Under the pieces are notes generated by a model that saw only the letters and a program-made list of their open reading frames with translations, was not told where the DNA came from and made no database searches. DNA of 64,000 nucleotides from Trichinella spiralis (lineage: Eukaryota). Where the stretch lies: assembly GCF_000181795.1 (NCBI RefSeq), contig NW_003526943.1, forward strand, positions 1,607,647 to 1,671,646, written 5' to 3'. The position numbers and the translations under genes were made by a program. Shown one piece after another: positions 41,609-45,851 of the stretch (the first letter of the stretch is position 1; each line of letters begins with the position of its first letter).

Positions 41609-42743
41609 ATGAATGTTCATGGAAGTTCGCAAATAACGAATCCATTGCACATTCAATGGAACCCACCGTGGAATCCAAATTGGTTAAGTGCTTCAAACGT
41701 ACTGGACTGCTTCACCAATACATTAAATCCTTTCTACGATCCGAATTGTTTAAATGAGCAAGTCAGAATTCAGCGCTTGTCAAGTGAAATACTGAGGTTA
41801 CTTTTATAATTTACAAAAATTACATTAATATTTAATAACTTTTTTTTGAAATTCTTTTCTAGCCGTGTTCATGGAGTGGAATACATTCTTTTACACGCAG
41901 CAGAACCATTGTTTGTTATTCGAAAGCAATACCGTCAACCTAACCAAAATGGTAATGAATAATTTTTTTGCTTTGTAAATCTTTCATGGATTTTGTGAAT
42001 TTAAACTTTTATGAAATTAAAAAATTAGCAATAGTAAGTAAATGGTGGCATCACCTTATTTCAAGGGCTTTTTGTTTTATAAAAACCTGATTGATGTTAT
42101 TGCGATTCTTTGTTATAAATTTTAAATTTCTGTAGTAACTCCTTTGGAGGATTATTATATCATTGGTGGAACAGTGTATCAAGCTCCAGACTTATCCTCT
42201 GTTTTCAACTCTCGATTGCAATCTGCAATCAGCAATGTACGATCAGCATTTGAAGAAGGTATCCGTTTCTTCAGTTATTTCAATGCAAAAGTGACTTGCG
42301 ACTGTTTTTGCATTATAGCAAAATCCTATTACCGCTTTAATACTTCAGATGGATATTACTTTCAGTACAAAAATGAACCACCTGTAGAAAAGGGTAAGTT
42401 GTTTTATTAATTTTTATAGTATTAATTATAAATTTCAGTAGATACAAAGAAAGATGATAAAACAGGTGATGATAAGCGCGTAAGCGTTTTTCAAAAGTAT
42501 CGTATGGATATGCTGTTGAATGAGTTGTCCGAAAAGTTTCCTCCGGCACTTTCGCTTGAAGAATCAAACGAAAATACCCAAGATGGGAAAATGACATCAA
42601 GTTGGTTAGCACATCATCATTGTATTATTTTTTATTTTGCTTTTACAGATGAGGAACCCCAAACAAGTGCACAAAGCAAAAATGATCAAATGGAGTCACC
42701 AGCTTTACCAGCTTCAAAAAAAATCAAATCGGATATGAATTGA
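41609..42743 (+). CDS. MED6: Mediator subunit 6 (multi-exon span)
   Basis: NPLHIQW, NVLDCF..NPFYDPNCLNEQVRIQ, GVEYILLHAAEPLFVIRKQ, PLEDYYIIGGTVYQAPDL, FQKYRMDMLLNELSEKFPP. Confidence 0.95.
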
Positions 42744-43122
42744 TCTAAATTTTAAAATACTGAGATATTATTAGATAACGCTTTTATTTTTAAGAACTTT
42801 AATTTTAAATATTGCCGAAAATTTAAGGAAATGAAGTTGAATATAGTCGTAAATAAAAAAACAAAATTACAGTATGCTCTTCTGAAATTTGCATTTGAAA
42901 ATGAAACCGCGATATTTGAAGAATCAAAATTTTTGCTTGCATAAATTACTTTTCATGTTACGTATGTTGAACATCGTACTTTAAAGTTTCATAACTTTTT
43001 TTCTATATTTAATGATAAAACTTTAAGCATTTGCATTACTGTAATTTTACAATAATACTTAATTGTCTAATTAGAAGGGACTGTGGTAGGATTTTCTTGT
43101 TGGAAATAGAAGTTCACTTTTG

Positions 43123-43314
43123 ATGTCAGACAAGAAGGGGACTCAAGCACCTGCTGAAACCGTTCAGTCTGATAAAAAGCCAAAACCTTGTTGTGCTTGT
43201 CCGGAAACAAGAAAAGCACGTGACGAGTGTATTGTTGAAAAAGGTCCTGATAGTTGCAAGGAATTAATTGAAGCTCATCGACGTTGCATGAAGCAGTTTG
43301 GCTTTGAAATCTGA
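43123..43314 (+). CDS. COX17: Cytochrome c oxidase copper chaperone (63 aa, intronless)
   Basis: [47 protein letters not shown] copper site and twin CX9C. Confidence 0.97.
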
Positions 43315-43328
43315 TTTGTACGCCGAAT

Positions 43329-44039
43329 ATGACTTCTGATAATTCGACGAAAGATTGCGAATTAAGCATTGCTAGAAGCGAATTAACACATTTGGACATA
43401 TCCGTCAAACAGTTGATTCGATATATTCGAGGTTTCGAAGGCTCCAATTCGGACTTGGAACGTCTGTGCCTTCATTGCCGAGCTGACATATTTGCCATGG
43501 AACAACTTCTTGAAGATTATAAGCAAGTGTTGATGTTGAACAAAATCAGTGATTCTGACGCGGAAGAATTCAGATTTGTGACAACTTATAGAATTGAACT
43601 GGAAAACAATATTCAAAGTTTAAGGGAAGCAATCCTTGTTGCTTCGCAGAATGCAGATAATTACGAACGAGAACTCCTATTTTCGCGATATAATGATGAT
43701 GCATGTACTGAAATTTTAAGAAAGCGAAGGATTAATGAGAAGAAGCGAAATGTGAGTGAGGCGAGACAGTTGCAATCTAGTTTAACATCACTGTTGGACA
43801 AAATGAATGATACTGTTCAACAAAGCGAATTAACGTTGAACAAATTAACTGCGTCTTCGACTGCACTCCGCGATGCTACATATGAAATGCACGGAATGTC
43901 ATCATTGATTCACACATCTGGAAAGCTTTTGAAAAAATATAAACGAAGACAATTTAGTGATCGTTTTATAATTTTCCTATGCTTCGGTATTTTTCTGCTT
44001 AGTGCAGCCTACATTGTGAAAATTAGACTTTGGAAATAA
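43329..44039 (+). CDS. SEC20: ER SNARE Sec20/BNIP1 (236 aa, intronless)
   Basis: Helical N-terminus, ERELLF..LRKRR, SNARE-like segment QQSELTLNKLTASSTALRDATYEM...SGKLLKKYKRRQFSDR, and a C-terminal TM FIIFLCFGIFLLSAAYIVKIRL. Confidence 0.88.
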   Translation: MTSDNSTKDCELSIARSELTHLDISVKQLIRYIRGFEGSNSDLERLCLHCRADIFAMEQLLEDYKQVLMLNKISDSDAEEFRFVTTYRIELENNIQSLREAILVASQNADNYERELLFSRYNDDACTEILRKRRINEKKRNVSEARQLQSSLTSLLDKMNDTVQQSELTLNKLTASSTALRDATYEMHGMSSLIHTSGKLLKKYKRRQFSDRFIIFLCFGIFLLSAAYIVKIRLWK

Positions 44040-44253
44040 AACTTTTTTCGCATGGCAAATTCGGTTGTAATTTAAAAATATCTTTACTGTTATTCTGCAT
44101 AATACAATTTGTTACTTAGTATATATAAAACTAGCCCATGCCTAAATAGTACATTAATGTCGATTTCACTGAAAAGAAATTCGAATTTAAAATGCATTTT
44201 ATTATTAAATCCTTATAATTAACATCACATAATAATACTATTTAACGGTTATA

Positions 44254-45112
44254 TTATAGCGCAAAATTTCGGCTCAGTGGAAGCCTATTATAATTCGGGG
44301 GATAAATTGCCACATCGATATAGTCGCCAATTTCGAATTCCAAGTCTCCCAACATTTTACCATCATCTTCTCCAGGCTTACCAGCTGTCACACTTCCAAT
44401 ATCTCTCATTCTATACATAAGTCCTCGATAGTCTGGATACGCTGTAAAAACTGTTACTTAAATTTGTAGTTTTAAAAAGCAGCATAAAAATTACCAATAG
44501 CATAATCATATCTAGTTCCACGCTGTCTTGTTTCGGGTATAGCTTCACGAATTAAATCGCTTAATTCACCTAATGTACAATCTCGCCTAAAATAAAACTG
44601 TGCTACATACTTTATGTCTGCATGCTCTCTGCTTCAATAAATACCATGTGTATATCTGCACTTCGCTAGGTGGTAAGGAGTTTCTAGTGTAATCACGACA
44701 ATAATTATGCCGTCCAATCGATGTAAAAACTCGCAATAAAAACGGGCATATCTAAATAAAAAATAAACATACATAACGAACAGAAAATCTGATTCAATCA
44801 TAAAACAAATAATACATGGTTGTTCCCAAACAATAGCAAAACTGCTACCCTTTACAACAGTATAAATATAATAACAACAGAAGAATCGAATCGAACTGAA
44901 AAAGCATTCTAAGGCAACTTTCAAAATTTCTGATTAAAGTATTTTTCAATTTAACAAAATCATGATTCAATACAACGGTTTTCCAACCTTCAGTCAAATA
45001 AACAGTAAATTTCAAAATTTTACTTTTAAATCAAACATACTTTCTCTCTGTCTGATAACTTTGTATCAATCTTAGATGCAGTATCACTAGGATTCGGGTA
45101 ATTTGCAATCAT
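44254..45112 (-). CDS. SAP18: Sin3-associated protein 18 (4 exons)
   Basis: DREK/ICPFLLRVF, EVQIYTW/RDCTLGELSDLIRE, YRMRDIGSV..G..GEDD...FEIGDYIDVAIYPP. Confidence 0.95.
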
Positions 45113-45851
45113 TTTGTTCAAAAAACATCAAAATAAGAATACAAACACGTTTGACATAGAACAGGAACAGTAAGAAATGATAAGCAGGTATTAATGACTA
45201 CTATTAATTCTCTAAATTATGCAAATAAGTAAAATCATTTATAAAAACTTAAATATATTCATAATTTATTAGATATTATTGTCCATTTAATTAGGGCTAG
45301 AAAATAGCATCTAATTATTTTATTTGAGAAAAACTTTTTATGATGTAACTAGCAAATTTAAAATTTGCATATCAGTTTTTCCAAAACCACAAGCTCTCTA
45401 AACATTTATTCTGATGAGTTCGTTTGAAACTTGTTCAAAATAGAATTTATTTCGTGTGACTCAATGCTAACTTCTGCTTTCTAGATGATACTAAAACACA
45501 ACGTTCCAAAAGTTTCACAGTGTTCTACTCATACGATTTGAAATTCTGACATAGTTTCAGAAATTATTTTGCATACAAAAACTTTCACTAAATAAGTAAC
45601 AATAACTCAGACAACTGAGCAATACACAACTTTATGTTAAAATTTTTTGATATTATTTTTTCTATACATCTAATCTCAATCTTTATCTAAATCATAAAAA
45701 GCAAGCAACGCGAAGCAAGACAACATCATCCTAAAATTTGTTAACAATTAAAACAAAGCTATTTATTTCCTGAAAACATTTACAACATTGAGTAATATTA
45801 TTAATCGCTTTTCCGCATTTTCGCAAATACGTTATTGTAATATTGACAATT

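What the first reader, a model, noticed from the sequence alone, without database searches (positions are those of the whole stretch)
43123..44039. COX17 and SEC20 look like a true dicistronic mRNA (14-nt spacer)
Seen: COX17 TGA (43312-43314) is followed by tttgtacgccgaat and the SEC20 ATG (43329) in a different frame. The spacer has no AG acceptor, there is no AATAAA in COX17 or the spacer, and the next AATAAA overlaps the SEC20 stop. Both ORFs are intronless among intron-rich neighbours. The COX17 ATG is in weak context (ttgATGt), its only internal ATG is also weak (tgcATG), and SEC20 has A at -3. Established: nematode operons are normally resolved by 3' cleavage plus trans-splicing across roughly 100 nt. 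Inference: both proteins are made from one mRNA by leaky scanning or reinitiation, coupling a mitochondrial copper chaperone to an ER SNARE. Alternative: trans-splicing at gttcag (43162-43167) inside COX17 makes mutually exclusive mRNAs. Unverified recollection: the C. elegans orthologues are also neighbours, which would make the linkage ancient.
Basis: partly seen in the sequence, partly recalled or inferred. Interest (0 to 1): 0.85.

Follow-up and report, generated by a model that had tools for sequence, protein, structure and literature searches.

The report
Two-protein COX17-SEC20 message in nematodes
In a Trichinella worm, the genes for a mitochondrial copper carrier (COX17) and an ER membrane-fusion protein (SEC20) lie 14 bases apart, are covered by unbroken RNA contigs, and are neighbours in distant nematodes too; they likely share one finished mRNA that ribosomes probably read by slipping past the first start, which would be an exception to the rule that worm operons are cut into one-gene messages.

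Summary
COX17 (PF05051) and SEC20 (PF03908) lie 14 nt apart in different frames, with no AG, ATG or AATAAA in the spacer. The worm is Trichinella.

In 6 of 7 contig runs laid, one contig crosses the spacer with no joint. In 5 of those 6 the upstream MED6 gene is on a separate contig. So MED6|COX17 looks like a normally cut operon junction and COX17|SEC20 does not.

COX17 has 0 out-of-frame ATGs where 2.4-3.3 are expected (P 0.003-0.05), and a weak start context. Both are leaky-scanning signatures. Fused gene models place COX17 directly before SEC20 in Caenorhabditis, filariae, Thelazia and Enterobius, so the linkage is old.

Best reading (0.6): a bicistronic mRNA read by leaky scanning. Main rival (0.25): trans-splicing at AG 43129, or an internal start, makes a SEC20-only mRNA; this also predicts the ATG depletion. 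Public COX17-SEC20 fusion proteins look like annotation artefacts. No long reads, spliced-leader reads or ribosome data were available, so a single mature molecule is not shown.

The parts
41609..42743 (+). MED6-like gene, likely the upstream gene of the same operon
   Evidence: Five GT..AG joints in RNA; joined ORF is 243 aa; PF04934 in the fused model P0012; stop to COX17 ATG = 379 nt
42852..42857 (+). AATAAA, likely the MED6 poly(A) signal
   Evidence: MED6 contigs of X2 and X6 end at 42849 and 42846; changed to a variant in organism D, whose contig runs further
42858..43072 (+). A/T-rich intercistronic region, poorly covered by RNA
   Evidence: Raw-read depth 0-0.21; crossed by a contig only in X1; TAYYTT at 42947 and 42977
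43073..43074 (+). AG, candidate trans-splice acceptor or region of the 5' end of the joint RNA (inferred)
   Evidence: Contigs begin at 43074, 43085 and 43091; acceptor score -1.1 against -0.6 to 8.4 for 8 confirmed acceptors; no spliced-leader letters seen
43075..43122 (+). 48-nt ATG-free leader
43123..43314 (+). COX17 ORF, 63 aa, weak start context, no out-of-frame ATG
   Evidence: PF05051; 7 of 7 codon pairs that could spell an out-of-frame ATG avoid it
43128..43129 (+). AG just after the COX17 ATG: the best rival acceptor, which would cut off the COX17 start
   Evidence: Score -1.0; used by fused models; inferred lost where COX17 begins MLH (T. patagoniensis, T6)
43162..43167 (+).
   Evidence: T fraction upstream 0.21 against 0.47-0.74; score -10.1
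43288..43290 (+). Only internal ATG (in-frame Met of the CX9C end; 8 codons to the COX17 stop), weak context
43296..43366 (+). Intron implied by public fused COX17-SEC20 gene models; not seen in RNA
   Evidence: Junction of P0012; no such joint in 8 runs laid; acceptor score -8.1
43315..43328 (+). 14-nt spacer, no AG, no ATG
   Evidence: same length with 2 substitutions in organism D; reads CTPN in the SEC20 frame, as in the N-terminally longer SEC20 of four other Trichinella taxa
43329..44039 (+). SEC20 (BNIP1-type ER SNARE) ORF, 236 aa, A at -3
   Evidence: PF03908 at residues 143-234; named orthologues in other Trichinella
44035..44040 (+). AATAAA overlapping the SEC20 stop, likely the poly(A) signal of the joint RNA
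   Evidence: contigs end at 44048 and 44056
44254..45200 (-). Convergent SAP18-like gene (family name recalled from the translation, not scanned; 5' limit approximate)
   Evidence: Three CT..AC joints and opposite read strand; translation

Best explanation
COX17 and SEC20 lie 14 nt apart under unbroken RNA coverage and likely stay on one mature mRNA, from which SEC20 is probably made by ribosomes that scan past the weak COX17 start. Steps: (1) MED6, COX17 and SEC20 are likely co-transcribed as an operon (inferred from spacing and one read-through contig). (2) The MED6|COX17 junction is likely cut in the normal way, by 3' cleavage after AATAAA 42852 and a new 5' end near 43074 (the coverage gap is shown; the spliced leader is not). 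(3) The COX17|SEC20 junction has no poly(A) signal, no acceptor and no room for either (shown in the sequence), so the RNA runs on to AATAAA 44035. (4) Some 40S subunits would start at the COX17 ATG; the rest would scan about 200 nt that hold only one further, weak ATG and start at the A(-3) SEC20 ATG (inferred).
For: One contig crosses the spacer, with no joint, indel or loose end there, in 6 of 7 contig runs laid (X1, X2, X6, X8, X10, X11; three studies; two organisms by sequence). MED6 is on a separate contig in 5 of those 6. Stranded raw reads of one RNA run cover the spacer (depth about 3) but hardly the MED6-COX17 gap (0-0.21). COX17 has 0 out-of-frame ATGs against 2.4-3.3 expected under four synonymous-codon models (P 0.046, 0.012, 0.006, 0.003). 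ATG is the most depleted of 64 trimers, and SEC20 and MED6 are not depleted. 0 of 23 control COX17 ORFs from metagenomes have zero (65 seen, 71.5 expected). A weak ORF1 context plus ATG depletion are the two signatures reported for leaky-scanning bicistrons (PMC11291117, abstract and section 13). The COX17-then-SEC20 order recurs in fused models from C. auriculariae, Litomosoides, Setaria, Thelazia, Enterobius and Trichinella (7 of the 120 hits listed; order). MED6 stop to COX17 ATG is 379 nt, against a published T. spiralis median of 380 nt; the published poly(A)-to-acceptor range of 74-213 nt cannot fit in 14 nt (PMC7668243 section 8).
Against: Contigs cannot show single molecules and drop rare forms. 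X1 also joins MED6 to COX17, so read-through alone can make a joined contig. Raw-read depth rises from about 3 over COX17 to 7-13 over SEC20; this fits a 5' ramp with 121 reads, but also an extra SEC20-only RNA. AG 43129 scores as well as AG 43074 (-1.0 and -1.1), and both fall just under the 8 confirmed acceptors. A 5' end there would also explain the ATG depletion. Organism D has an AG inside the spacer. The depletion test rests on 7 sites in one gene and on codon usage from few genes. Three other nematode fused models join COX17 to something other than SEC20 (Rhabditophanes, Aphelenchoides, Mesorhabditis). Fused models show adjacency, not spacer length.
Confidence: 0.6

Rival explanations
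1. Two overlapping mRNAs share one 3' end. The long one makes COX17 and carries SEC20 as an untranslated tail. A shorter one, trans-spliced at AG 43129 (or started inside the 5' part of COX17), lacks the COX17 ATG and makes SEC20.
For: AG 43129 has the best acceptor score inside COX17. It predicts the same ATG avoidance, because all 7 avoided sites lie downstream of it. It predicts unbroken contigs too. Depth is higher over SEC20.
Against: No loose leader letters at any site in 8 runs laid (low power). The AG is inferred lost in T. patagoniensis and T6, whose COX17 begins MLH. Depth rises about 230 nt after 43129, not at it. The other internal AGs within COX17 downstream of 43129 score -2.4 to -14.6.
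Confidence: 0.25
2. One bicistronic mRNA, but SEC20 is made mainly by reinitiation after COX17 termination.
For: Stop and start are 14 nt apart. In T. britovi, T. murrelli, T8 and one T. nativa model SEC20 begins MCTPNM, which implies an in-frame ATG overlapping the COX17 stop (DNA not seen). PMC11291117 notes that reinitiation is higher with very short spacers.
Against: Reinitiation gives no reason to avoid ATGs inside COX17, yet they are avoided. A 63-codon ORF is long for reinitiation. No TGGGA motif (recalled from calicivirus elements) in the last 100 nt of COX17. The overlapping ATG needs only one base change in one clade (phylogeny recalled).
Confidence: 0.08
3. A spliced COX17-SEC20 fusion protein, as many public gene models say.
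For: Fused models exist for T. spiralis, T. pseudospiralis, T. papuae, T. zimbabwensis, T6 and five other nematodes.
Against: No such joint in 8 runs laid. Junctions differ between models, even within T. pseudospiralis. The acceptor is AAG, score -8.1, while 8 of 8 confirmed acceptors are YAG. The Trichinella models drop the invariant COX17 Gly60-Phe61. The same models also fuse MED6 or an ankyrin gene. Read-through adds only 5 codons and there is no slippery heptamer. An intermembrane-space protein joined to a tail-anchored ER SNARE is topologically awkward (own knowledge).
Confidence: 0.04
4. An SL1-type operon with no intercistronic DNA: the COX17 poly(A) site abuts a SEC20 acceptor.
For: Such operons exist in C. 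elegans and Ciona (PMC1488885 passages). Organism D has an AG 3 nt before the SEC20 ATG.
Against: The window has no AG in the spacer and no AATAAA in COX17. The organism D contig reads through its AG. It would not explain ATG avoidance in COX17.
Confidence: 0.03

Closest known systems
Bicistronic nuclear mRNAs read by leaky scanning: green algae, and Drosophila stoned and Snapin (PMC11291117; abstract and section 13 read)
   Same: Short leader, weak ORF1 start, ATG depletion before ORF2, short ATG-free spacer.
   Different: This case sits in a trans-splicing nematode, apparently as the uncut end of an otherwise cut operon. There the mechanism was tested by mutation; here it is not.
Drosophila conserved-peptide uORFs with twin CX9C motifs, e.g. 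CG9865 uORF1 (PMC2276209; passages read)
   Same: A small twin-CX9C mitochondrial protein as first ORF before an unrelated main ORF.
   Different: In the passages seen Cox17 is named only as a comparison; the partner here is an ER SNARE.
T. spiralis SL2-type operons (PMC7668243; passages, section 8 part 1, Tables S3 and part of S6 read)
   Same: The MED6|COX17 junction has the typical spacing (379 nt stop to start; about 200 nt from poly(A) region to AG).
   Different: The COX17|SEC20 junction has 14 nt, no poly(A) signal and no acceptor. The locus is not among the 45 curated operons by gene name, and name searches of the supplements found nothing.
SL1-type operons without intercistronic DNA in C. 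elegans and Ciona (PMC1488885; passages read)
   Same: Genes almost touch.
   Different: Those are cut at an AG that abuts the upstream poly(A) site; here neither AG nor AATAAA is present.

Membership tests
COX17 copper chaperone (PF05051) | Pfam match above cut-off, Cys-Cys and twin CX9C | tested here: met
   78 bits against 24.9; invariant cysteines
Sec20/BNIP1 SNARE (PF03908) | C-terminal Sec20 domain with membrane anchor | tested here: met
   70.6 bits against 27, residues 143-234; no solved relative found by sequence
Leaky-scanning bicistronic mRNA | Both ORFs on one mature polyadenylated molecule | tested here: inconclusive
   Unbroken contigs in 6 of 7 runs and raw-read cover of the spacer; no long reads
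Leaky-scanning bicistronic mRNA | Weak start context of ORF1, stronger for ORF2 | tested here: met
   T at -3 and +4 against A at -3; judged by the general purine at -3 rule (recalled), no Trichinella matrix built
Leaky-scanning bicistronic mRNA | ATG depletion upstream of ORF2 | tested here: met
   0 against 2.4-3.3 expected, P 0.003-0.046; neighbours and 23 control COX17s not depleted
Leaky-scanning bicistronic mRNA | No separate ORF2-only mRNA | tested here: inconclusive
   No leader letters or pile-ups of read starts, but depth about 3
Leaky-scanning bicistronic mRNA | ORF2 output falls as the ORF1 start is strengthened | not testable with these tools
   Needs a reporter
SL2-type operon junction (COX17|SEC20) | Poly(A) signal, then 74-213 nt, then an AG acceptor | tested here: not met
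   14 nt, no AATAAA, no AG
SL2-type operon junction (MED6|COX17) | Poly(A) signal, typical spacing, coverage gap | tested here: met
   AATAAA 42852, 379 nt stop to start, gap in 5 of 6 contig runs
SL2-type operon junction (MED6|COX17) | SL2-type leader on the downstream mRNA; Ur motif about 50 nt before the acceptor | tested here: inconclusive
   No leader letters seen; nearest TAYYTT is 97 nt before AG 43074
SL1-type operon without intercistronic DNA | AG acceptor at the upstream poly(A) site, AATAAA upstream | tested here: not met
   definition
Termination-reinitiation element | Overlapping stop/start and an upstream UGGGA motif (recalled) | tested here: not met
   14-nt gap and no TGGGA in the window; overlap only inferred for four other taxa

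The most novel reading that the evidence does not exclude
COX17-SEC20 has been an uncut, leaky-scanning bicistronic mRNA since the last common ancestor of nematodes, nested at the end of ordinary trans-spliced operons. It would then also exist in C. elegans (cox-17/sec-20), where RNAi or alleles of either gene would hit both and the mechanism can be tested at once. COX17 would be a recurrent first cistron in animals, with SEC20 in nematodes and mL48 in another group.
Probability: 0.3. Interest if true: 0.8.

Novelty: new variant of a known kind. Interest (0 to 1): 0.6.

Why it matters
Nematode operons are described as being cut into one-gene mRNAs that are translated singly (PMC2776167 passage). 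A conserved, uncut two-protein message inside such an operon would show that these animals also use translational polycistrony, and would give a tractable case in C. elegans. It would fix the ratio of a mitochondrial chaperone to an ER SNARE by start-codon strength. It would explain why public annotations repeatedly invent a COX17-SEC20 fusion protein. It would warn that RNAi against either gene removes both. Separately, the fast, mostly amino-acid-changing evolution of the SEC20 N-terminal domain in Trichinella hints at a conflict acting on a housekeeping SNARE.

Tried and rejected
No whole genome is held, so no genome-wide spacer distribution, codon table or paralogue search was possible. 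The search of 50% representatives for further SEC20 relatives was still queued at the end, so Trichuris and other clade I relatives are untested.

Run search: no listed holder is on record as RNA. 8 of 24 runs were laid; X12 laid nothing. Spliced-leader ends and poly(A) tails were not seen, but contigs lose them and raw depth was about 3, so this is no evidence. Contig depths were not used to rank genes.

Metagenome scan: 0 of 80 COX17 loci had a credible SEC20 match (tblastn with 3 Trichinella SEC20 queries; three weak hits at E 0.56-0.98, upstream or antisense). None was recognisably a nematode. In the ATG test 38 of the 80 loci were used; 42 were left out as near-duplicates, intron-broken, lacking an in-frame ATG or with doubtful starts. 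The 15 COX17-mL48 loci show only weak depletion (29 against 36.8; 2 of 15 at zero), so they do not support leaky scanning as a general COX17 rule.

Stop read-through, frameshift heptamer, TGGGA motif and strong local hairpins were looked for and not found; the lowest 60-nt fold was -18.5 kcal/mol at 43125, with no shuffle control. The antisense 110-aa ORF at 43067-43399 was not studied; raw reads there lie on one strand only.

Literature: no held paper has both cox-17 and sec-20, or both cox17 and sec20. Searches showed no report of this locus in their listings. Five papers asked for by recalled id (a WormBook chapter on gene clusters, twice, and three nematode operon papers) are not held. I recall that such reviews list a few C. 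elegans dicistronic mRNAs, so prior mention cannot be excluded. Supplements of PMC9984361 and PMC12410068 had no hit; those of PMC1657053 were unreadable; the PMC7986045 archive is held cut. Earlier scan findings held nothing on this locus.

Full report
What is there. The two ORFs are COX17 (PF05051) and SEC20 (PF03908). The closest named relatives are Trichinella SEC20 proteins at 79-87% identity, and a fused model containing both proteins is named from T. spiralis. A MED6-like gene lies upstream on the same strand and a SAP18-like gene lies downstream on the other strand.

RNA evidence. I laid 8 of the 24 listed runs. Seven were contig sets whose RNA status is the tool's guess. Six of them show spliced exons: GT..AG joints in X1, X2 and X6, and loose ends equal to the previous exon in X8, X10 and X11. 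The tool marks X10 as probably DNA. In these six, one contig crosses the spacer without a joint, indel or loose end: X1 to 44048, X2 43085-44056, X6 43074-43947, X8 43091-43894, X10 43263-43889, X11 43158-44022. The seventh (X12) laid nothing. In five of the six, MED6 is on its own contig, ending between 42695 and 42927 (the X11 contig then runs on with 46 loose letters). In X1 it runs through to SEC20. Stranded raw reads of X19 (121 reads laid, about 18% of the run) give depth 0-0.21 across the MED6-COX17 gap, about 3 over COX17 and the spacer, and 7-13 over SEC20. So the two junctions of the same gene row behave differently. Contigs do not prove single molecules, and no leader or poly(A) letters were seen.

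Processing signals. Published T. spiralis operons have a median of 380 nt from upstream stop to downstream start, and 74-213 nt from poly(A) site to acceptor (PMC7668243). MED6|COX17 fits: 379 nt, with AATAAA at 42852 and an AG at 43074. COX17|SEC20 cannot fit. A matrix from the 8 RNA-confirmed cis acceptors nearby scores them -0.6 to 8.4 (leave-one-out). The matrix is small and built on cis sites, so it only ranks candidates.

Translation signature. Seven codon pairs in COX17 could spell an out-of-frame ATG by synonymous choice; none does. Expected counts are 2.4-3.3, with P(0) = 0.046, 0.012, 0.006 and 0.003 under four codon models. ATG is the most depleted of 64 trimers. SEC20 (11 seen, 8-10 expected) and MED6 (15 seen, 11-14 expected) are not depleted. 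None of 23 control COX17 ORFs from metagenomes has zero. With the T(-3) start, this meets the two sequence criteria for leaky scanning in PMC11291117. It argues against pure reinitiation and against an acceptor near the COX17 stop. It does not separate leaky scanning from a second 5' end near the start of COX17, because all seven sites lie downstream of 43129.

Conservation. Run X11 is a different organism by sequence. It keeps a 14-nt spacer with two substitutions, one of which makes an AG; its contig reads through that AG. SEC20 models of T. britovi, T. murrelli, T8 and T. nativa begin MCTPNM, matching the window's spacer read in the SEC20 frame. This implies the same register and an in-frame ATG overlapping the stop (inference, DNA not seen). 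Fused models show the order in T. pseudospiralis, T. papuae, T. zimbabwensis and T6. A profile search for long COX17-containing proteins gave 175 hits, 120 listed. Seven carry both COX17 and Sec20 domains, all from nematodes: C. auriculariae, Litomosoides, Setaria, Enterobius, Thelazia and two Trichinella, with COX17 first in the six of them scanned. That spans clades I, III and V (clade labels partly recalled). Three other nematode models join COX17 to other genes. C. elegans cox-17 is F40G9.2 and sec-20 is F40G9.1 (PMC13216265 and PMC3135481 passages). A published operon prediction lists a two-gene operon at III:188832-191981 whose second gene takes SL2, with no third gene called (PMC7986045 supplement). 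My reading of those ids as ubc-20 and cox-17 is recalled and the prediction misses many operons, so this is only a lead. Spacer lengths outside Trichinella were not seen.

The fusion proteins. These models use different junctions, a poor acceptor, and also fuse MED6 or an ankyrin gene; no laid run shows the junction. They are best read as gene-finder attempts to force one ORF on touching genes. SLOPPR's authors note that operonic genes are often annotated as fused.

Mechanism and odds. Bicistronic mRNA with leaky scanning 0.6; overlapping mRNAs by an alternative 5' end 0.25; reinitiation 0.08; spliced fusion 0.04; SL1-type junction 0.03. Shown: the layout, the missing signals, unbroken RNA cover, ATG depletion, conserved order. 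Inferred: operon transcription, the 5' end, a single mature molecule, the route of translation. A mixed state (mostly long mRNA, some SEC20-only mRNA) is possible.

Comparison and novelty. It works like the leaky-scanning bicistrons of green algae and Drosophila, and like Drosophila messages led by small twin-CX9C ORFs. Membership is not complete, because the single-molecule and reporter tests are missing. It fails the tests for SL2-type and SL1-type operon junctions. The ten paper searches found no report of this pair, but key nematode operon reviews were not held. Papers seen: PMC7668243 (passages, section 8 part 1, supplement legends, Table S3, part 1 of S6, name searches); PMC11291117 (abstract, section 13); PMC7986045 (passages, supplement searches, one part of file 3); PMC2276209, PMC1657053, PMC2776167, PMC1488885, PMC13216265, PMC3135481 and bioRxiv 817130 (passages); PMC9984361 and PMC12410068 (supplement searches only).

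Verdict. A real and old gene arrangement with good but indirect evidence for one two-protein mRNA: a new variant of a known kind, interest 0.6.

Noticed in passing
window 43329-43718 (SEC20 codons 1-130): Against organism D, 25 of the 26 changed codons listed change the amino acid, and each inferred residue equals P0002. pN 0.094 against pS 0.037 (ratio 2.5, P 0.07) and against 4-6 changes in 184 nt of MED6 3' UTR (P 0.001-0.007) (up to 10 further differences were not listed). Across Trichinella the N-terminal part is 66-81% identical and the C-terminal part 92-96%. This suggests positive selection on the N-terminal domain of an ER SNARE.
   Followed up: partly
L004, L008, L016, L020, L021, L025-L030, L032, L033, L037, L038, L043: 16 of 80 metagenome COX17 loci are short intronless contigs with COX17 followed 8-139 nt later by a 203-248-codon Ribosomal_S10 ORF; L004's matches mitochondrial mL48. 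14 of 16 spacers have no ATG. Probably a second conserved COX17-led two-gene transcript in an unnamed aquatic animal group (copepods is my guess, untested).
   Followed up: partly
L002:1501-2808, L005:1501-2469: COX17 is followed 1 nt (L002) or 64 nt (L005) later by a small CHCH-like ORF and then a methyltransferase-like ORF: a possible three-gene message.
   Followed up: no
proteins P0054, P0063, P0083, P0096, P0048: An ankyrin-repeat gene follows SEC20 in four clade III models and follows COX17 directly in Rhabditophanes, so the ancestral row may have been COX17-SEC20-ankyrin.
   Followed up: no
window 41609-44039; proteins P0012, P0013, P0016-P0019, P0008: Public Trichinella annotations fuse MED6, COX17 and SEC20 (one also a transposon ORF) into single proteins with inconsistent junctions; likely annotation errors.
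   Followed up: yes
window 43123-44039: Both ORFs lack introns between neighbours with 5 and 3. Loss by recombination with a reverse-transcribed joint mRNA, or avoidance of decay triggered by introns after the COX17 stop, would each explain it; neither was tested.
   Followed up: no
proteins P0058, P0121, P0113, P0118, P0131, P0015, P0052, P0080: Other animal groups have their own recurrent COX17 fusion models: an NCBP2AS2-like ORF in crustaceans, a METTL6-like gene in tardigrades, PLP-binding or PF08661 genes in flatworms. COX17 often has a very close neighbour.
   Followed up: no
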